A stretch of DNA of 64,000 bases, taken from Octopus vulgaris (lineage: Eukaryota). A program made the translations under genes and the position numbers. The notes under the pieces were generated by a model. It did no database searches. It was not told where the DNA came from and was given only the letters and a program-made list of their open reading frames with translations. The stretch is taken from assembly GCA_951406725.2 (NCBI GenBank), contig OX597833.1, positions 47,182,001 through 47,246,000 of the forward strand. Reading direction: 5' to 3'. Shown here one piece after another: positions 4,549 through 63,785 of this stretch (position 1 is its first letter; each line of letters opens with the position of its first letter).

Positions 4549-4898
4549 ATTTTTCTATTCCTGAGAGCTATACTAATACATTTGTTTGTTTGTACTCCAC
4601 CTGCCTTCGTCTTTTGTTTATTTTCGTAAACTTTCTCTTTATATGTATATATATATATATATATATGAATATATGTGTGTGTATATATATATATATATAT
4701 AAGCATGTGCATATGTATGCATGTATCCATGTATATATGGATGTATCTATGTACACACACACACATAAATAGATAGTGTATATGTATGTATGCATATATA
4801 TCTATAAGTAAGCTTATACATATATATATGTACATGTATGTATATACGTGTTTTTATGTGTATGTGTGTATGTATATATATATGCTTATTTGTACTTA

Positions 4899-4981
<83 letters not shown>

Positions 4982-6633: not shown

Positions 6634-7978
6634 TATTGGATGATTGTATAATTATATGCGCTAAGAATTCAAATCCCTCCTAGGTCAACTTAGCCTTTCT
6701 TCTTCTCGGTGTCAGTAAAATAAAGAACCAGTTCACAATAGTAAATTGGCGGAATTGTTAGAGCATTGGACGAGATACCTTGTCGTATTCGTTCCAACTC
6801 TGTACGATCTGAGGTCATTACCCGCTTTCACATCACCACCTAGTCATTGGGTACCTTTTGCAAATCTTACTCAGTTGCATGAATTCGAATCAGCATCCCG
6901 TTTTTAGCGTAAATTCCTCCATTCTCTATTCTTGGGAATCTCTGACAGTGGCATAAAAGCTGTGTGGCTTAGTGGTTAGGATGTTGCACTCAAGATCGCA
7001 TGGTTGTGGTTTCAATTCCTGGACTGAGCAATATGTTGTGTTCTGTAGCAAAACACTTCGTTTCACGTTGCGCCAGTCCACTCAACGGGCAAAAATGAGT
7101 AATCCAGCGACGGACCAGTGCCTCAACAAGAGAGTGAGTATATACGCCACAGAATCCGGGAAACCGGTCTGAAGAGTCTATGGCTCAGGAAGGACCTTTG
7201 ATCCTGACTGTGGTGTAGCTAGAATGTGTAAGGCGGCGAGCTGGCAGAACCGTTAGCGTGCCAGGTGAAATTCTTAGCGGTATTTCGCCTGCCGTTACGT
7301 TCTAAGTTCAAATTCCGCCGAGGTCGACTTTGCCTTTCATCCTTTCGGGGTCGATTAAATAAGAACCAGTTACGCACTGGGGTCGATGTAATCGACTTAA
7401 TTCCCTTGTCGGTCCTTGTTTGTCCCCTCTATGTTTAGCTCCTTGTGGGCAATAAAGAAATGAGAATGTGTACGATCTGGAATAGCCTTTGAGTTCACAG
7501 CTCCCTTCTTCTCCGGGACCCCAAGCCTATACAGGGTTATACGGCAGACCCCAAAGTATCACTATTGATAAAAGTATCGCCCGGCTGAACTGTCCCTCCT
7601 CGCTCCACCTCCTATACTACTCTCTTCTGAAAACTATCGGCTCAAGGATGCTAAACCCCCACTCTCTCTCTCTTCTAAGCAAATAAAATAAAAGCGGTTG
7701 GCATAGCTGTGTATAATAGCAATGAGCTGTCTGATATACATATCAATGAAAGCAACCTACATTTAGTGAATGTTGTGATATTTGATGACACCAACATATA
7801 TTTATGTATACTACTCGGGAACCCGACTCTGCTATCCACCTCACTGTACACACAATTTCATAACAAATACTTCTTTTTTCCCCGCGCTACTTTACCTCTG
7901 TATTCTTTGCTTCATATTTTCTTCTTTCGTCTTTATTCTTCTCCCATTGGCTTCTTTTATTTATATTCTATATTCTTT

Positions 7979-8100
7979 ACGGAGATGTACTTGCATAGCA
8001 TGTGATTTGATCTGAGATCGTGTGCTGAAACGAAAACAATTGCAGCGTGGAAGGTGTTTGTAAGCCATTTAAGAAAACACCTTCCGCGCTGCAATTGTGG
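7979..8100. mobile_element. Family P1, short copy
   Basis: Same extension and arm start, short inverted segment ending gctgcaattgt; 12-bp direct repeat tctatattcttt. Confidence 0.75.
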
Positions 8101-8601: not shown

Positions 8602-9294
8602 GATATTGCTTTAATATACATCACTAACCTCAAGGTATAATGGTTTCTTACAACAATGAGAGAGCCTCTTCATGGTCGGTCAACCTGCTCGTGAAAGAAT
8701 GCTAATCTCTCTGCAATCACCTATAAAAGGTGGGGAACACTCTGAAAGCTTTATAACCCCTAGGCTAGCATTTCCCATCCTTTTAACATCGTAACCCGTT
8801 TTGGTTAGTTAATAATCCTCTGTAGTACTTATTTTAATAATTGAGTTCTCAAAGAGCAAACACAAAATTTGTGGGAACGGAAACGAAAACGGTCGTGTCT
8901 GTGTGGTAAGAAACTTGCTTCCCAAGTCACATGGTTCCGGGCTTAATACCCCTGCGTGGAACCTTGGACATGTGACTTCTTCAGTAGCCTTGGACCGACC
9001 AAAGTTTTGTGAGTAGATTCGGTAGACGGAAACTGAAAGAAGCCCACAATATATATACGTGTGTGTGTGTGTCTGTGTCTCTCCTCCACTACCACTGCTT
9101 GACAACTGGCATTGGTGTGTTTACGTCCCCGTAACTTAGCGATTCGGCAAAAGAGACCGATAGAATGAGTACCAGGCTTTTAAAAAAAATAACTACTGAA
9201 GTCAACTTGTTCGGCTAAAATTCTTCCTGGAGTGCTCCGGCATGGCCACTGTCTAATGACTAAAATAAGTAAAAGGTAAAAAAATCTCTTGGGT

Positions 9295-10542
9295 GAATGC
9301 AGTCAGCTAGCACAAAAAGAATATATGGTGCAGGCATGACTGTGTAGGCAAACGAATAGATTTGGATGTTAGCCGTGTGTGAGGCTTCGAAATAACTGAA
9401 AATTTGTATAAACACGAACTAGAGGCTGTGATAGAGAATGAAAATGACAGGATTTTATGGGACTTCTCATAAAGACTGGCCGCACTAATGAAGCAAAATG
9501 ATCAGGTATGAACAGATAGGACAAAATAAAGGCGCGGGAGTGGCTGTGTGGTAAGTAGCTTGTTTACCAGCCACATGGTTCCGGGTTCAGTCCCACTGCG
9601 TGGCACCTTGGGCAAGTGTCTTCTACTATAGCCTTGGGCCAACCAAAGCCTTGTGAGTGGATTTGGTAGACGGAAACTGAAAGAAGCCCATAGTATATAT
9701 GTAAATATATATATATGTGCGTGTGTGTTTGTGTGTCTGTGTTTGCCCCAACCAACATCGCTTGACAACCGATGCTGGTGTGTTTATGTCCCCGTAACTT
9801 AGCGGTTCGGCAAAAGAGACCGATAGAATAAGTACTGGGCTTACAAAGAATAAGTCCCGAGGTCGAGTTGCTCGATTAAAGGCGGTGCTCCAGCATGGCC
9901 GCAGTCAAATGACTGAAACAAGTAAAAGAGTAAAAGAGAGAGTAAGATGATAAACTTTGCAATACCATGTAATAATAGAGTGGATATTAAAAAAAATTGG
10001 AAAAACTGAGAAAAACCAGAGAAGTAAAGCGATTGTGGAAGACTGAAGACAACAATTATTTCTGTAGTAATTCTGTGGTAATTTCTGTGGTAATTCATGC
10101 ACAATACCCAAACAGATACCTAAGAAGCTGAAAGAAGCTTAAAGGCGGCGAGCTGGCAGAACCGTTAGCACGCCGGGCGAAATGCTTAGCGGTATTTCGT
10201 CTGCTGTTACGTTCTGAGTTCAAATTCCGCCGAGGTCGACTTTGCCATTTCATTACTTTCGGGGTCGATAAATTAAGTACCAGTTACGCACTGGGGTCGA
10301 TGTAATCGACTTAATCCGTTTGTCTGTCCTTGTTTGTCCTCTCTGTGTTTAGCCCCTTGTGGGCAATAAAGAAATAAGAAACTGAAAGATATTGGAATTG
10401 AGATTTGCATTACCGGCCTGCAGAGACGAGCAATCCTATATTCTGCATCCCAAGAAAGATTTTTTCAGTTTTCGGAGATTTGTTGTTGCCATACCTCAAG
10501 ACAACATCCCTGCCAACTAATGAAATATGTAATAGTTATAGG

Positions 10543-10585
<43 letters not shown>
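9295..10585 (+). mobile_element. Decayed R4/Dong-clade non-LTR 3' end split by two SINEs
   Basis: Broken peptides ECSQLAQKEY..RHD.VGK, LYKHELEAVIENENDRILWDF, MINFAIPCNNRVDIK, KTTIISVVI, then a (TAA)n tail. Confidence 0.7.
9531..9940 (+). mobile_element. SINE family S1 (CORE-like, internal TA/TG microsatellite), representative full copy
   Basis: Head ggcgcgggagtggctgtgtggtaag, CORE-like ggcaccttgggcaagtg, tail gaaacaagtaaaagagtaaaagag. Other copies near 1270, 4215, 8890, 11460, 11821, 13235, 21675, 22470, 35505, 42170(-), 42553(-), 48524, 50570(-), 52171(-), 55680(-), 56220. Confidence 0.9.
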
Positions 10586-10586
<1 letters not shown>

Positions 10587-10893
10587 TATCATTAGTAGTG
10601 GGACCCATGGAAATTTCCACGGAATGGAAAAAATTAAGAGGACCTATTTAAGAAAGAAAGGATGACTTGCATTTTTATCAGATTCATAGTTTAGCTTTCT
10701 TTAAATATTGTTGACGTTCGTCTACGTTCATTTCCTCACGTCTCCGTCGGTGTTGTCTTTTTCCTATTTTTATTATATTTTCTCGCTGTTTCTCTCTGAT
10801 CCGTGCTCTATATCTGCGCATCCTTTCTCGGGCAGCTTGCAACCGTGCTTCATGTGGATCTAGACTTCAGGCTAAATTAACGCTTAAAAACAA

Positions 10894-11245
10894 TTGCAGC
10901 GTGGAAGTTGTTTGTAACCCATTTAAGAAACACACAAAAGCCGTTCGATTCACTTCAACATTTAAGATTAATTTGTCAAAATATTTTCGTCGCTAAACCG
11001 CGACCTGTTCACTGACAAAAATCCGTGCTGCATCACGGATTTTTGCAGCACGGATTTTTGTCAGTGAACAGGTCGCGGTCTTAAAGCGACGAAAATATTT
11101 TGACAAATTAAACTTAAATGTTGAAGTGAATCGAACGGCTTTTGTGTGTTTCTTAAATGGCTTACAAACACCTTCCACGCTGCAATTGTTTTCGTTTCAG
11201 CACACGATCTCAGATCAAATCACTTGCTATGCAAGTACATCTCCG
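10894..11245. mobile_element. Fold-back Penelope-like non-autonomous element, family P1
   Basis: Inverted arms of about 145 bp plus a one-sided ~55-bp extension; 16-bp direct repeat taacgcttaaaaacaa; hammerhead motif in each arm. Confidence 0.75.
11057..11107 (+). ncRNA. Minimal type-I hammerhead ribozyme motif, G3-C8 variant
   Basis: tttgtca-GTGAACA-g-gtcgc(ggtcttaaa)gcgac-GAAA-atat-T-T-tgacaaa; also on minus at 10972-11019 and 40120-40170. Confidence 0.65.
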
Positions 11246-11683
11246 TAACGCTTAAAAACAAATACAAATTTTTTCAAGCGAGCAGACGATAAATAATTAC
11301 ACTTATGCGCATGCGTTAAGTGATGATGGCTATAAAAAAAATACTTTTCACTATCAACACACCATCACCGCTCTTTTTCTCTCTCTCTCTCTCCCTCCCT
11401 CTCTCTCAATATAACTGTTTCCCTAGTCCATCTCTCTCTTTTTACCTTTCCCATTCTTTCGTATATATATATGCGTGTTTGTGTGTCTGTGTTTGTCCCC
11501 CCAACATCGCTTGACAACCGATGCTGGTGTGTTTACGTCCCCGTAACCTAGCGGTTCGGCCAAAAAAGATACCGATAAAATATGTACTAGGCTTACAAAG
11601 AATAAGTCCTGGGGTCGATTTGATCGACTAAAGGCGGTGCTCCAGGATGGCCACAGTCACATGACTGAAACAAGTAAAAAGAG

Positions 11684-11822
<139 letters not shown>

Positions 11823-12009
11823 CGCAGGAGTGGCTGTGTGGTAAGTAGCTTGCTAACCAACCACATGGTTCCGGGTTCAGTCCCACTGCGTGACATCTTG
11901 GGCAAGTGTCTTCTGCGGGCCGACCAATGCCTTGTGAGTGGATTTGGTAGACGGAAACTGAAAGGCGGTGCTCAAGCATGGCCGCAGTCAAATGACTGAA
12001 ACAAGTAAA

Positions 12010-12044
<35 letters not shown>

Positions 12045-12080
12045 AAATTGGGGAATTAGGTTGTGCAACATACGCCGTAC

Positions 12081-28690: not shown

Positions 28691-29379
28691 GGTACTACTT
28701 AAGAAGAGTGGTCCCGGTGCGCGCACTCGCGTGCTCGCGGATCCGCGCTAGCTAGTCGTGACTAATCGATCCTACAACGACTACCTATCTATCTATCTAT
28801 CCGCTCAGTCGAAGTCGACTCTCGGTTACTCGATGGATCAGTGTCCTCCAGTCAGTTCTATCCTGGGCCGCTTCTTTCAGACTGGCTATGTCCATTCCGG
28901 TATCACTCATGATGGTGTCAAGCCAGCGGGTTCTTGGTCGGCCTCTTCCTCTCTTGCCACTGACCATTCCGAGCATGATGTCCTTCTCCAGGGATTTTCT
29001 CCGCATAGTATGACCGAAATATGCCAATCTATGCTTGGTGATCCTAGCTTCTAGCGACAGCTTCGGCCTGATCTGCTTAAGAACTTCTCCATTGATGAGC
29101 CTCGCTGTCCATGGAATCCGTAAAAGACAACGACTACCTAGCAACAAAAAAAAATACTTATTTTGTGTTTTATTTACTTTACAACGACTACCTAGCAATG
29201 TAAATAAAACACAAAATAAATAATGTTTATACTCAAAGTACATAATTTTTTTAAAACAAAGTAAATAAAACACAAATTAATTATTTTTTTTAAAAACAAA
29301 GTAAATAAAAAAAAACACAAAGTAAGGATCGACTAGTCACGACAAGCTAGCACGGATGCACGAGTTCTTGAGTAGTACC
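28691..29379. mobile_element. Merlin-like MITE interrupted by an RTE LINE
   Basis: TIR ggtactacttaagaa / ttcttgagtagtacc plus subterminal inverted block gctagctagtcgtgactaatcgatcct; GGTAC terminus; flanks cacttact/cacttata. Confidence 0.65.
28787..29126 (-). mobile_element. 5'-truncated RTE (BovB-like) LINE
   Basis: LRIPWTARLINGEVLKQI...RLAYFGHTMRRKSLEKDIMLG...RGRGRPRTRWLD...DRTDWRTLIHRVTESRLRLSG*, (GATA)n tail, direct repeat acaacgactaccta on both sides. Confidence 0.92.
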
Positions 29380-39977: not shown

Positions 39978-40269
39978 TTATGGAGATGTACTCGCATAGC
40001 AAGTGATTTGATCTGAGATCGTGTGCTGAAACGAAAACAATTGCAGCGTGGAAGGTGTTTATAAGCCATTTAAAGAAACACACAAAAGCTGTTCGATTCA
40101 CTTCAACATTTAAATTTAATTTGTCAAAATATTTTCGTCGCTTTAAGATCGCGACGTGTTCACTGACAAAAATCCGTGATGCAGCAAATTAAACTTAAAT
40201 GTCGAAGTGAATCGAATGGCTTTTGTGTGTTTCTTAAATGGCTTACAAACACCTTCCACGCTGCAATTG
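39978..40269. mobile_element. Family P1, third copy
   Basis: Extension + full arm + truncated inverted arm ending gctgcaattg; 13-bp direct repeat tttactttacatg. Confidence 0.78.
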
Positions 40270-40296
40270 TTTACTTTACATGATTACGATCTTAGA

Positions 40297-40845
40297 TTAA
40301 CTTTTAGTAGTTATAGAGTCAGGTGTCAGAGGTGATGGAGATGGAACATTTTGATCTTCAACAGTAAAGATGCCTGCATAGCATCCAGCAAGGATTTCTG
40401 CACATTCTTTGGGATTGTCAGTAATCTGGTCTATGTGGGGATTGCGAAGGGGGCCAACTGGAGAGTGAGGTCTCTGTTTTGAACGTACGTACTTCCAGAA
40501 CACTTTGCTGTCAGGGTTGGTTGCTATGCACTGTTCGAATTCAAGCACTGCCTTTTTTGTCACCTGCTTGAGATGGTTGGCTGATCTATTGCGCTTTTTC
40601 CTGTTGATCTCTGATTTGTGCATTTTGTATTCCTGTTCAACATTACAGCGTTCTTTCCTGGCACGTCGAACTGCTGCAGCCTCCCAAATTGTCAACACTA
40701 CACCTGATTTTCTCCCCTCCATACACATGCAAGCATGTATCTGACGCATACACTGTTCACTTCCCAGATATTTGTACATTTCTGCATATGCTTTATATGC
40801 ACTTTTGACAAGTTGTGGTGCACCTGAGCACTGTATACAATTATT

Positions 40846-43778: not shown

Positions 43779-44371
43779 GTAAGTTTCTTTTATGTGTTGT
43801 ATTTGTTGTTGTTAATCCCTGTGCCCCTTATAAATCAAAATATGCAAGGTTGGATAAAATACCTTGTGGTACTTGGTTTCATCCATTTATGTTCTAAGGT
43901 CAAATCCCTGAGAATTTTACATGCATACATACATATGTAAATCATCATCATCATTTGTTTCCATGGTGACATGGATTAGAGAGCTTGACCAGAGCTGGCC
44001 AGCCCGAGAGCTGCACCAGTTTCAAGTTGTCTGTTTTGGCTTGGTTTCTATGGCTGGATGCCCTTCCTAATGCCAACCAGAGTGCACTGAGCATTTCTTA
44101 TGTGACACCAGCTCAAGTGCTCTATATGTGGCACAGGCACAGGAGCTGTATACATGGAACTTGCATGTGTGCATTATACATGGCACTGGTATGGGTGCTT
44201 TTTACATTGCACCAACATTGGTGCTCTTTTATGTAACACCGGCACAAGTGCTTTTTATGTGGAACTGACACGTTTCGTTTTTGGATTTGGTTTGCAAGAT
44301 TCTTTATATGAGTTCATGTGTTGAAGCATATTCTGTTGTGTCTGGGGAGAGTCCTTTTCTTTTTGTCAAGA

Positions 44372-44408
44372 CTATTGAAAAGGTTGCAAGACGCAACGAA
44401 AAGTTTAG
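44372..44408 (+). ncRNA. Minimal hammerhead-like motif, U3-A8 variant
   Basis: cta-TTGAAAA-g-gttgc(aagac)gcaac-GAAA-ag-T-T-tag, between inverted repeats tgttgtgtctggggagagtc / gactctccccagatgcaaca. Confidence 0.5.
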
Positions 44409-46875
44409 GAAAATAAAAATAAGAAATAAGTGGAAATTTTACCGGTGAGTGTGTTACATTATAAGGCACAAAAAGAAAATGACTCTCCCCAGATGCAACA
44501 GGACATGACGCATGTTTATTGTAACCTATAATCATGAATGATGCATAATGAGCAAAAGAGTACAATCTTTGGTAAAAGTAGCCAAAAAGGGGTTCCACCA
44601 AAGGGTCTCTGCAGTAACTTTAATCAACAGGATGTGTAGCTCAGAGATCCTGGAAACACTCCGGGTCAAGCCACTATTTCTCCACATTGAGAGATCACAG
44701 CTCTGATATTACAGATATGTGATTAGAATGCCACAGAAGGTAGTGAGCTTATAGAATTATCAGCATACCAGACAAGATGCCCAGCAGTATTTCTTGTGAC
44801 TTTATGTTTCTGAGATCAAAAGATCAAATTCTGCTGAAGTTTCACCTTTTCAAGGTTGATAAAATAAGTACCAGTTGAGCAACTTAACCCCTACCCACAA
44901 AAATTTCAGGCCTTATGCCTATAAAAGAAGGGATCATCATCATCATCATCATCATCGTCGTCGTCGTCATCGTTATCATCACCATCACCACCATCACCAC
45001 CACCACCACCACCACCACCACCACCAGTAGTAGTAGTAGTAGTAGTAAGGCAGTTGGGCGGCAGTAAAAGTTTATTGCGAGAAATGTTGTCGTAACTGTT
45101 AAAGGTCAGAATATATAATTTCTGGTATTAGTTCACCGACAGAAATCAAACCATTTGCCAAGCATCACCAGTTACATTATAAAGTGCTGGCTACACCCTC
45201 TCCACAAAGTATGTACTATAATCTTTTTCTGCCATTTTAACTGAACTGTGGTAACTCCACAAGATAATTCATCAGTCACTTATAACAAGCAAGATAGATT
45301 ATTTTACAATTGACACTGGAAAATTTTGAGAAGGTGCCTTCTGTATGAAGAACATATTCTTTAAATATTGGTTACTAAGGTAGTGGACTGAAAATAATTT
45401 TTTAAATTAATTGGAATTGTAATCTGAATGAGTTAAGAAAATCAGTCATTAGTGTTGACGAAAATTATTTTCAGGTAGCTCAAGGGAGAGAACCTCTGAA
45501 ATTTCAATTAGCCAAAAGTTCCACCTACCAAATTCACTCACAAGACATTGGTTGCCCCAACGCTGCATTAGAAGACTTCTCCAAGATGCTGCTGCAATGG
45601 GACTGAACCTGAAACCACAGAGTTGCAAAGCAAGCTTCTGAAGACATATATATATATAATTTAAGAAACACTATATATGTTTTTTATGTGCTACTATTAG
45701 TTTCATACGCTGAGAACATGCCAAACTTTGTTTTATAACATGTCTGGTGTCCCAGCACAATCATCAGACACTATCCACACTTCATAGTTTCCTGTACATA
45801 CAGTTGTTGTCTATCCCAAAACTGGAGGATCAAACCAGAAATTACTGCATGACACATTGTCTTCTACTACAGTTTGTTTATGTGATTGCATAACAAACTT
45901 TTTAATCACTCAAGAATATTTGTGCCTTTGTTTTTTTTTCTTAAAAAAAATTCTAACTTATTTCTGTCCCTTTTCTTATACTCTAACCTTTCATCTGGCA
46001 TTAAGTCACCTTCTTCAATACTACTCACCCACTCAACTGAAATGTGTATGTGTGTGTGTGCATGTGCAGGTGCCGCATAAAAAGCACTCAGTACACTCTG
46101 TAAAGAGGTTGGTGTTAGAAAGGGCATACAGCCATAGAAACCATTTCAAAGCAGACAGCAGAGTTTGGTTCTGTCTTCTTACTTGCCAGCTCCTGTTGAA
46201 CAATCTAACCCATGGAAAATGGGCATTAAATGATGGTGGTGGTGGTGGCGGTGGTGGTAGTGGTGGTGGCTGCTGCTGCTGTTGTTGTTGTTGATGTTGA
46301 GCGGTTTGAAACGTGGTCCTTTGCTATTCGTAAGACCCGCAGAAGAGAAAGCAGGTCAACCCCCAGCACCGAGAGCATTAACAGATGGATGAATGCGCAT
46401 CCAGGCTCAGCGGTTGCGTAGGAAGTTGGGGACAAGAAACAGGAAGAAAGAGTGAGAGAAAGTTGGAGCGAAAGAGTACAACAGGGGTCGCCACAACCCC
46501 CTTCCGGAGCCTCATGGAGCTTTAGGTGTTTTCATTCAATAAACACACACAACACCCGGTCTGGGAATCGAAACCACAATCCTCCAACCGCGAGTCCGCT
46601 GCCCTAACCATTGGGCCATTGCACCTCCACTGCTGCTGAGTGAGATAAAATACTAGGGATTGAAATGAGAGATTTTCAGCAAGGAACTCGGATTGAAACT
46701 CCATATATAATGTTCTGAAATTGTATGTTTAGAATCACAAGGCCATACTGACACCTTTCTTGAAGTTTATACTAAAAGTCAAATACTATTCCCATTTCAA
46801 GCATAACAGGTTTAAGTGCTGAATTAATGGTTAAGATGGAAGGTATTTGGCAGAGATCTTGAGAGTGTGTGTATC

Positions 46876-62882: not shown

Positions 62883-63282
62883 GTAAGCCTTTTATTTATT
62901 TATTTTAGACTTTTTCTTTTATTTTATTTTCAAAACTTGCTGATTGCATACTAGATGATCTTGTAGTTATTTCAAACATCTTGGTAAACTGAAATGAAAC
63001 AGAAACAAACATACTAATAAAATCAAGGAGCAAGGTCCTTCCCAAGTCATCGGCTCATAAGGCCAATTTCCCCAAATTTTTTGGCATATATGTTACCTTG
63101 CTGTCCTGGATGATGGTCTGTCACAAGATTACTCATTTTCACAATGTGAAATGAAGTGTCTTGCTCAAAAACACAATGCATTGCCCAGTCCAGGAACTGA
63201 AATCACAATTTTACAATCATGAGTGGAATGCTCTAAGCACTGAGCTACATGTATCCATTCATTATAAAATACCTGTTGTGAA

Positions 63283-63785
63283 TTAAGATATGAACCATTT
63301 TGTTGCACAATGCGTTTCCATCTTTCCTTTAACTTGAAAATACCCTCTTCCCATAATTGAGGTGGTTTCATGGCAAAGAATTCATCAAGGTATCTTTTTA
63401 CGTCATCCAAGGAATTGAAATTTTTACCATTAAGACTATTCTGCAGAGACCTGAATAAGTGGAAATCCGAAGGAACAACATCTGGTGAATATGGAGGGTG
63501 ATGTAACACATCCCAGCTGAGCTGCAGCAATTTTTGTCTGGTTCCCAAAGCATCAAGTGCCGAAAATGAACTTTGTCTGATTCCCAAAGCATCAAGTGCC
63601 GAAAATGAACATTTTAAAGGGTTACAGAATTAACCCAGGTTATCGGAACATAAACCTTCTTCCACGAAAACTGTACTCTAAATGGAGGTGTAGTCAAATT
63701 CTATTTTATGAACTCAACCATGTTCTAAAATAAGTCGAAAGGTAAGCTACTATAAATCGGCACGAACTTTCCGGACAGCCTAATA
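63283..63785 (-). mobile_element. Mariner remnant with internal deletion
   Basis: WDVLHHPPYSPDVVPSDFHLFRSLQNSL...GIFKLKERWKRIVQQNGSY; one TIR (minus) ttaggctgtccggaaagttcgtgccgatt next to TA; 30-bp duplication at the deletion junction. Confidence 0.9.

What the first reader, a model, noticed from the sequence alone, without database searches (positions are those of the whole stretch)
10878..11261. Fold-back retro-insertion carrying two opposed hammerhead ribozymes with a swapped G3-C8 core pair
Seen: a long palindrome whose plus arm reads helix I tttgtca/tgacaaa, core GTGAACA, one extra nt, helix II gtcgc/gcgac, GAAA, palindromic AATATT helix III and a U-U site; the mirror motif is on minus. 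Known: the hammerhead core is CUGANGA with a C3-G8 Watson-Crick pair, and Penelope-like elements carry minimal type-I hammerheads with palindromic helix III that act as dimers. Inference: the two core changes are compensatory (G3-C8), so this may be a functional ribozyme that CUGANGA pattern searches miss. The extra nt is G here and C in the 40120 copy, as expected for an unpaired position.
Basis: partly seen in the sequence, partly recalled or inferred. Interest (0 to 1): 0.82.

Follow-up and report, generated by a model that had tools for sequence, protein, structure and literature searches.

The report
Swapped-core hammerhead in Penelope-like retrotransposon
This palindrome is an ordinary truncated insertion of a Penelope-like jumping gene whose roughly 7,000 copies carry a hammerhead-type RNA motif with two paired core letters swapped (G3-C8), while sister elements keep the same pair as C-G or U-A, so the fold is likely preserved by selection, though self-cutting is untested.

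Summary
10878-11261 is a 5'-truncated, 5'-inverted insertion of a Penelope-like element (PLE). I found the ORF-bearing parent (pseudo-LTR, RT + GIY-YIG ORF, pseudo-LTR). The motif lies 93 nt before its start codon, where PLE hammerheads sit, and 6,856 places in the genome match the G3-C8 core. In sister families, anchored on the homologous ORF start, pair 3-8 reads G-C (111/117), C-G (21/22; 7/8) or U-A (25/25), and helix II covaries too. So the swap is compensatory and the motif is a true minimal-hammerhead homolog. Corrections: the two opposed motifs are a by-product of PLE inversion (45/92 copies). They lie on opposite strands and cannot form a cis dimer, and read-through RNA buries them in one long hairpin. 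The G/C difference at the extra base is a sporadic mutation. Cleavage is unshown: only 2/92 copies begin at the cut site, and G3-G8 mismatch copies are in excess. I found no natural G3-C8 in the papers searched (one key paper unreadable); engineered G3-C8 is partly active. This scan noted G3-C8 hammerheads before, in protist PLEs and phages. Verdict: new variant of a known kind.

The parts
10878..10893 (+). Left target-site duplication; its last 7 nt are shared with the end of the inverted arm
   Evidence: (D13)
10887..11034 (-). Inverted, tail-less copy of the PLE pseudo-LTR end; it stops at the inner of two recurrent 3' ends (likely RT start site 1)
   Evidence: inverted arms end at L181 4863-4869 in 34 of 45 copies
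10972..11019 (-). Minimal type-I hammerhead-like motif, G3 at 11012, C8 at 11007, predicted cleavage after 10979
11035..11043 (.). Fold-back junction, short rearranged duplication of the unit's 5' end
   Evidence: D17
11044..11248 (+). Forward copy of the PLE pseudo-LTR end with tail, about 95% identical to the pLTRs of the ORF-bearing element in L181
   Evidence: 94.1% and 94.5% to L181 4723-4925 and 8984-9182
11057..11107 (+). Minimal type-I hammerhead-like motif, G3 11064, C8 11069, extra G 11071, predicted cleavage after 11100
11157..11248 (+). First ~30 codons of the PLE ORF (start ATG 11157); in full-length copies the ORF continues into RT and GIY-YIG
11193..11248 (+). PLE 'tail' of about 55 nt, present on one arm only (likely the stretch between two RT start sites)
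   Evidence: PMC11167929
11246..11261 (+). Right target-site duplication; its first 3 nt are shared with the tail end
39978..40300 (.). Second fold-back copy of the same family; intact motif on minus at 40120-40170, the other arm truncated inside helix I
7977..8098 (-). Third, short copy of the family without the motif
44372..44408 (+). Homologous motif of sister family F3 with a U3-A8 pair, inside its own fold-back insertion

Best explanation
The stretch is a 5'-truncated, 5'-inverted insertion of a Penelope-like retrotransposon whose pseudo-LTR carries a homolog of the minimal type-I hammerhead with the 3-8 core pair swapped to G-C, which likely still cleaves, weakly and only as a dimer or with protein help. 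Shown: family membership, ORF-bearing parent, position of the motif before the ORF, compensatory pairs across sister families. Inferred from published PLE biochemistry: the RT-endonuclease nicks both strands of an AT-rich target about 11-16 nt apart and primes cDNA at two internal sites in the first codons of the ORF. Both cDNAs run to the RNA's 5' end about 15 nt before helix I and are joined head to head, which gives the palindrome and duplicates the motif. Inferred for the ribozyme: helices I and II fold in a monomer, helix III (AAUAUU) forms only between two motifs, G3-C8 replaces C3-G8 in positioning the 2'-OH of residue 8, and cleavage would fall after U17 (11100). Its natural setting would be a transcript of the tandem full-length element, not this locus; here read-through RNA buries both motifs.
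For: Parent element: L181 has pLTR 4723-4925, ORF with YVDD RT motif, CxxxCxxC linker and VYQIKC..YIGET nuclease, then pLTR 8984-9182. A profile of homologs hits reverse transcriptases in the PDB (best E 1.9e-6). Copy number: 6,299 exact matches to a 24-mer and 6,856 to the G3-C8 core with flanks. Covariation with copies anchored on the ORF start and positions 3/8 not scored: F1 G-C 111 of 117, F2 C-G 21 of 22, F4 C-G 7 of 8, F3 U-A 25 of 25 (motif found in 117/163, 22/38, 8/24 and 25/42 anchors; the rest truncated or decayed). Helix II pairs 3 and 4 switch C-G/U-A and G-C/A-U. On an 18-sequence alignment made without a structure, 96% of cells pair and 0 of 500 shuffles reach this; slid controls pair 10-73%. 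An older family F5, found by a pattern with F1's 5' helix strands, has canonical CUGAAGA with F1's 3' strands (GCGAC in L336, TGACAAA in L341). Features named by Cervera and de la Pena are present: extra base between 9 and 10.1, G10.1-C11.1, palindromic 15.2-16.2 (PMC4209133). The engineered C3G/G8C double mutant partly restores cleavage in a PLE hammerhead that needs the PLE protein (PMC11167929). The nested dimer costs nothing in the energy model: -27.0 vs -26.4 kcal/mol for two monomers.
Against: No cleavage or RNA-end data. Only 2 of 92 tail-anchored copies start within 2 nt of the cut site, one of them at a locus edge, against 32 at the 5' start 50 nt upstream, so uncleaved RNA is the template. 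422 copies have G3 with a non-C at 8, and 40 of the first 100 listed have G8 (hand count). That is far more C>G than other columns show and may mean a mismatched G3-G8 master once transposed. The young sister family F2 has C at position 9 in 19 of 22 copies, and F4 has an irregular helix I (helix I only 63% paired across families, partly from misregister of F3). The extra base is G where the published consensus has H, and N17 is U. Only four to five families, all related and from one genome, carry the covariation signal, so it rests on few independent events. Pfam did not recognise the ORF.
Confidence: 0.62

Rival explanations
1. The motif is a hammerhead descendant that no longer cuts. The fold is kept for another job, such as an RNA handle for the RT, an RNA-RNA dimerisation signal through the palindrome, or control of translation of the ORF 93 nt downstream.
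For: Inserted copies almost never begin at the cut site (2 of 92). In a lizard PLE, hammerhead mutants do not affect insertion in vitro and no reads ended at the cut site (PMC11167929). Excess of G3-G8 copies; C9 in the very successful F2 family.
Against: A plain structural role does not need U4, G5, A6, G12, A13, A14, A15.1-U16.1 and a Watson-Crick 3-8 pair, all kept across families whose RTs are about 55-62% identical. Arms of fold-backs agree at diagnostic sites in 17 of 21 loci (random pairing 17%), so there is no general sign of two different RNAs per insertion.
Confidence: 0.27
2. The G at position 3 was fixed for a DNA- or splicing-level reason. It creates TCAGT / TTTGTCAG, which resemble an initiator and a splice acceptor (consensus recalled). 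C8 followed later or by drift, so ribozyme function was relaxed during the change.
For: The unit's 5' end is sharp: 32 of 92 copies start at the same AG|ATGCAG, behind a CTAAC-pyrimidine-AG stretch, so promoter or splice signals lie here. Penelope has an internal promoter with an intron next to its hammerhead (PMC2377424; PMC4209133). G3-G8 copies could be the intermediate.
Against: The 5' pile-up is about 20 nt upstream of position 3, not at it. G8 copies are scattered over older subfamilies, not one clade, and their enrichment in the oldest type is not significant (11 of 30 vs 2 of 15, p=0.16). This rival still needs selection on the pair to explain C8.
Confidence: 0.08
3. The hammerhead likeness is chance within a fold-back repeat (a MITE or miRNA-like hairpin).
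For: Rfam lists only sub-threshold miRNA-hairpin matches here and no hammerhead.
Against: Shuffle controls; same position and core in canonical-core sister families. Rfam also finds no hammerhead in three loci with canonical cores. The element has an RT-nuclease parent and one-sided tail, unlike a MITE.
Confidence: 0.02

Closest known systems
Minimal type-I hammerheads (min-HHR) in the pseudo-LTRs of Penelope-like elements (Cervera and de la Pena 2014, PMC4209133)
   Same: Type-I layout, palindromic helix III, extra base between 9 and 10.1, G10.1-C11.1, location in both pLTRs, thousands of solo copies, pairs on opposite strands 100-700 bp apart, a covarying 3-8 pair (U3-A8 reported).
   Different: G3-C8 core, not reported in the parts read; extra base G where their consensus has H; 7-bp helix I and a 6-nt palindrome.
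PAc (Poseidon, Anolis) hammerhead and tail (Frangieh et al. 2024, PMC11167929)
   Same: Motif near the pLTR/ORF junction; tail lies in the first codons of the ORF between two recurrent 3' ends; AT-rich targets.
   Different: There G3-C8 is an engineered double mutant with partial activity; here it is the natural state. PAc's ORF starts in stem II; here it starts 93 nt after G3. This ORF has a CxxxCxxC linker.
Neptune / Nematis clades of endonuclease-bearing PLEs (as described in Craig et al. 2021, PMC8557442)
   Same: RT then C-terminal GIY-YIG, CX2-5CxxC linker, partial tandem plus inverted 5'-truncated copy, (TA)n bias (52 of 92 tails followed by TA repeats).
   Different: Clade not resolved: no reference sequences were at hand, and four peptides of this ORF were absent from that paper's supplement.
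Natural hammerhead core variants (Perreault et al. 2011, PMC3088659)
   Same: Compensatory 3-8 change found in nature.
   Different: Section 8 names only U3-A8; the figure itself could not be seen.

Membership tests
Penelope-like element (EN+) | Single ORF with RT and C-terminal GIY-YIG nuclease | tested here: met
   YVDD and VYQIKC..YIGET..H..H motifs; profile hits PDB RTs; weak likeness to a Pfam-positive GIY-YIG PLE of the same genome (E 5.6e-8 for RT, 0.001 for the nuclease). Pfam itself gave no hit.
Penelope-like element (EN+) | Pseudo-LTRs from partial tandem, with inverted 5'-truncated copy | tested here: met
   L181 has two direct pLTRs around the ORF plus an inverted copy; 45 of 92 copies are fold-backs.
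Penelope-like element (EN+) | One-sided 3' tail | tested here: met
   About 55-nt tail on one arm only; longer than the 30-40 bp quoted in PMC8557442.
Neptune/Nematis clade | CX2-5CxxC linker before the nuclease | tested here: met
   CQSNCAVC in the ORF.
Neptune/Nematis clade | Placement in an RT tree with named references | not testable with these tools
   The tree has only unnamed loci.
Minimal type-I hammerhead | Helices I and II around the core, G10.1-C11.1 | tested here: met
Minimal type-I hammerhead | Literal core CUGANGA | tested here: not met
   Core is GUGAACA in 6,856 places.
Minimal type-I hammerhead | Watson-Crick pair between positions 3 and 8 | tested here: met
   G-C 111 of 117; C-G and U-A in sister families.
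Minimal type-I hammerhead | U4 G5 A6 A9, G12 A13 A14, A15.1-U16.1, H17 | tested here: met
   All present in F1; N17 is U.
Minimal type-I hammerhead | Palindromic helix III allowing a dimer | tested here: met
   AATATT; computed dimer -27.0 vs -26.4 kcal/mol. Real dimer formation untested.
Minimal type-I hammerhead | Site-specific self-cleavage | not testable with these tools
   Needs in vitro assay or raw RNA-end reads.
Non-LTR retrozyme | Non-coding head-to-tail tandem unit with a hammerhead in each repeat | tested here: not met
   The unit is the pLTR end of an ORF-bearing element; this locus is an inverted pair.

The most novel reading that the evidence does not exclude
A natural, active G3-C8 hammerhead fixed in a recently mobile animal retrotransposon. 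One PLE clade in one genome has used three different Watson-Crick pairs at the catalytic 3-8 position (C-G, U-A, G-C), with old G3-G8 copies as relics of the transition. This would imply that CUGANGA-based surveys miss whole ribozyme families of thousands of copies and that some 'hammerhead-less' PLEs are not.
Probability: 0.45. Interest if true: 0.68.

Novelty: new variant of a known kind. Interest (0 to 1): 0.5.

Why it matters
Whether PLE hammerheads work or merely ride along is open (PMC8557442, PMC11167929). Here, related families with RTs only about 55-62% identical keep the catalytic box and swap the 3-8 pair three ways. That is comparative evidence that selection acts on the active hammerhead geometry, since pair 3-8 is a tertiary pair of the catalytic fold. 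F1 and F5 form a natural minimal pair (same helices, G3-C8 vs C3-G8) that can be assayed directly. It also shows that descriptors fixed on CUGANGA, and Rfam models, miss thousands of motifs in a single genome. The fold-back arrangement itself is ordinary.

Tried and rejected
DNA similarity search of the own genome returned nothing because common words are skipped; exact patterns were used instead. Rfam: no hammerhead at the locus, but none at three canonical-core loci either, so this is uninformative. Pfam GIY-YIG search found other PLE families (one with a U3-A8 motif), not the parent; the one family fragment in L059 is an unrelated insertion. Pfam did not recognise the F1 or F2 ORFs; single-sequence PDB search gave nothing. 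A structure prediction of the ORF was still unfinished after ten collection tries, so there is no fold evidence. Metagenome search gave two short related contigs without a motif and one weak hit. Sequencing runs: no RNA holder listed; the four runs laid were contigs, which cannot show ends or strand. Their listed variants fell outside core and helices, but 37 rows were not shown. A fourth pair, A3-U8 (8 of 50 double-changed places), was rejected: the six family copies inspected belong to different subfamilies, which fits independent decay. 'Two different RNAs per fold-back' was rejected as a general rule (17 of 21 concordant). Cleaved RNA as insertion template was rejected (2 of 92). A non-autonomous SINE-like or retrozyme reading was dropped once L181 was found. 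Literature searches for natural G3-C8: 'G3C8' 0 papers, 'G3-C8' 1 paper with an engineered variant, C3G+G8C 2 papers, both engineered, U3-A8 covariation 1 paper, GUGANCA and similar 7 papers that looked unrelated by listing, cephalopod PLE ribozyme none relevant. Lunse, Weinberg and Breaker 2017 (about PLE hammerhead variants that cleave as dimers) could not be read and may already list G3-C8; supplement file 1 of PMC4209133 and all figures were also unseen.

Full report
Observation. On plus, 11057-11107 reads helix I TTTGTCA, core GTGAACA, extra G, helix II GTCGC/GCGAC with a 9-nt loop, GAA, palindrome AATATT, T, and TGACAAA. A descriptor that accepts any Watson-Crick pair at positions 3 and 8 finds it, the mirror motif at 10972-11019 on minus, a third at 40120-40170 and a weaker U3-A8 motif at 44372-44408. 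Shuffles almost never give such a hit: 2 of 100 window shuffles at loose settings, 0 of 100 with a palindromic helix III, 0-1 of 5000 arm shuffles. Helices I and II fold in one arm; helix III does not.

What the element is. An exact 24-mer of the arm occurs 6,299 times in the 2.8-Gb genome and the tail end 3,409 times. Some copies run on upstream through a shared CTAAC-pyrimidine-AG stretch (440 matches). Following these led to L181 (G000:C4:22952000-22961900): pLTR at 4723-4925, an ORF with a YVDD RT motif, a CQSNCAVC linker and a GIY-YIG-type nuclease, a 3' UTR, a second pLTR at 8984-9182, and an inverted truncated copy upstream. This copy's ORF is interrupted; another copy has a 1,025-codon open stretch. 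Pfam did not recognise the protein, but a profile of 55 homologs hit PDB reverse transcriptases (E 1.9e-6), and 269 representatives matched at E below 1e-30. The ORF starts 92-93 nt after G3, and the tail is its first 30 codons. This is the architecture described for endonuclease-bearing PLEs with the CX2-5CxxC linker (Neptune or Nematis; PMC8557442, passages read). The clade could not be resolved.

The fold-back is ordinary. Of 92 copies picked by their tail alone, 45 have an inverted partner, whose 3' end falls at L181 4863-4869 in 34 cases; 52 of 92 tails are followed by TA repeats. Target duplications of about 11-13 nt are visible in non-TA sites such as L061, L080, L098 and L132 (printout; read by eye, as the script's own counter missed them). 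Inverted 5'-truncated copies and opposite-strand hammerhead pairs are described for PLEs (PMC8557442; PMC4209133, main text parts 1-2 of 4). A lizard PLE nicks and extends both strands and starts RT at two internal sites that define the tail (PMC11167929, parts 1-2 of 4). I infer the same here. The two motifs are on opposite strands, so no transcript holds both in sense, and read-through RNA folds into one hairpin of -246.9 kcal/mol with both helices at probability 0. Arms agree at subfamily-diagnostic sites in 17 of 21 scorable loci (of 44 found), against 17% for random pairs, so they mostly come from one template.

Is the swap compensatory? Within the family the test is weak because copies are young (median 1% difference among 17 youngest-subfamily arms). 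No core or stem site of 42 has a minor allele of 20% or more, against 3 of 8 in loop II (p=0.003) and 8 of 115 downstream (p=0.11). The extra base is G in 57 of 62 copies, so the C at 40120 says nothing. Between families the answer is clear. Protein searches found sister PLE families at about 55-62% RT identity with homologous ORF starts. With copies anchored on that start and positions 3 and 8 left unscored, the pair is G-C in 111 of 117 F1 motifs, C-G in 21 of 22 F2 and 7 of 8 F4, and U-A in 25 of 25 F3 (motifs found for 117 of 163, 22 of 38, 8 of 24 and 25 of 42 anchors). Helix II pairs 3 and 4 switch between C-G/U-A and G-C/A-U. On 18 hand-picked natural copies aligned without a structure (one misaligned copy of a distant PLE was left out), these six pairs are 96% paired, 0 of 500 shuffles reach that, and slid controls reach 10-73%. 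Related rows inflate this score, and the signal rests on a handful of events. Helix I is less tidy across families: 63% paired, partly because F3's shorter helix III shifts the register and F4 is irregular. An older family, F5, turned up among 50 places with F1's 5' helix strands but both core positions changed. L336 has CTGAAGA with GCGAC, L341 has TTGAAGA with TGACAAA, and both precede the homologous ORF start. In the RT tree, F1 branches apart from F2 and F3 (one best segment per locus, loci under 180 aligned residues left out). I take C3-G8 as ancestral because it is the general consensus; the tree does not prove it.

Does it cut? Not shown. For: all other core residues are kept. Pair 3-8 is a tertiary pair of the active fold, and G8C loses activity by about 1e5-fold while C3G partly restores it (PMC8495972, passage). 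The double mutant partly rescues a PLE hammerhead that needs the PLE protein. The nested dimer is computed at -27.0 against -26.4 kcal/mol for two monomers. Against: published min-HHRs are inactive as monomers and weak as dimers. Only 2 of 92 copies start at the cut site, one of them at a locus edge, while 32 start at AG|ATGCAG about 15 nt before helix I, so the uncut RNA is what gets copied. The extra base is G where the published consensus has H (supplement file 2 of PMC4209133, part 1 of 3 and passages). The prolific F2 family has C at position 9 in 19 of 22 copies. And 422 F1 copies have a non-C at 8, 40 of the first 100 listed being G (hand count), which is many for a C>G change. They are absent from the youngest subfamily (0 of 30), scattered among older ones, and their partner arm has C8 in 4 of 6 loci. 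They may record a transitional G3-G8 master or a mutation hot spot; I could not decide.

Mechanism committed to. The motif acts on transcripts of the tandem full-length element, where two pLTR motifs, or two RNAs, pair through AAUAUU and cleave slowly after U17, probably helped by the element's protein; the cut is not needed for insertion. Short copies like this one arise when RT starts in the first codons of the ORF and runs to the RNA's 5' end. They are passengers, and at this locus the motif is likely silent. Probability that the natural G3-C8 RNA shows site-specific cleavage in a dimer or protein-assisted assay: about 0.55-0.6. Probability that it is a hammerhead homolog with a compensatory swap: about 0.95.

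Novelty. Natural U3-A8 is published (PMC3088659, section 8; PMC4209133). I found G3-C8 only as an engineered variant (PMC6765202 and PMC6155905 passages added nothing on this). The most relevant paper, Lunse et al. 2017, was not available, and figures were not visible, so absence from print is not established. Earlier notes of this scan describe G3-C8 hammerheads in protist PLEs and phages; I did not test them. What this locus adds is a high-copy animal case with a found parent and three-way covariation among paralogous families. Verdict: new variant of a known kind, interest 0.5.

Noticed in passing
L181:4696-4727 and 440 genome matches: The unit's sharp 5' end lies right behind a CTAAC-pyrimidine-AG stretch that looks like a branch point and splice acceptor. 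Among 55 copies with this end, 14 have GAG and 13 TG before ATGCAG, and the first G of GAG is not in the parent. This fits a capped transcription start or an intron end; undecided.
   Followed up: partly
L349-L398: Excess of G3-G8 copies in older F1 subfamilies: a possible evolutionary intermediate of the C-G to G-C swap, or a mutation hot spot.
   Followed up: partly
L206, L207 (G000:C1:59389600-59399500; C17:6329500-6339400): Sister family F2 has intact 1,312-codon open frames in many near-identical copies and a hammerhead with C instead of A at position 9 (19 of 22), while older F2 copies have A9.
   Followed up: partly
window 44330-44500: Fold-back insertion of sister family F3 with a U3-A8 minimal hammerhead; a pattern for the F2/F3 ORF start has 16,726 matches in the genome.
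   Followed up: partly
L037-L060 (e.g. L042:2668): A further, distant PLE family (781-codon ORF) carries a U3-A8 motif without the extra base and with palindrome ACATGT.
   Followed up: no
L010, L026: Two fold-backs whose arms differ in loop II type, as if copied from two different templates; a minority (4 of 21 loci discordant).
   Followed up: partly
L332:875-1065: Fold-back with three head-to-tail 50-nt repeats of the motif's 5' half, suggesting repeated template jumps at the RNA 5' end.
   Followed up: no
L212:7746 and L042:3015 (minus): Other canonical CUGANGA minimal hammerhead-like motifs not linked to the families studied.
   Followed up: no
window 9000-12050: Several copies of an abundant SINE-like repeat next to (TA)n runs; its sequence recalls cephalopod SINEs (from memory, not tested).
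   Followed up: no
window 28797-29273, 40297-40779, 63165-63587: ORF fragments that look like LINE (RTE- and CR1-like) and mariner transposase remnants (family names recalled, not tested).
   Followed up: no
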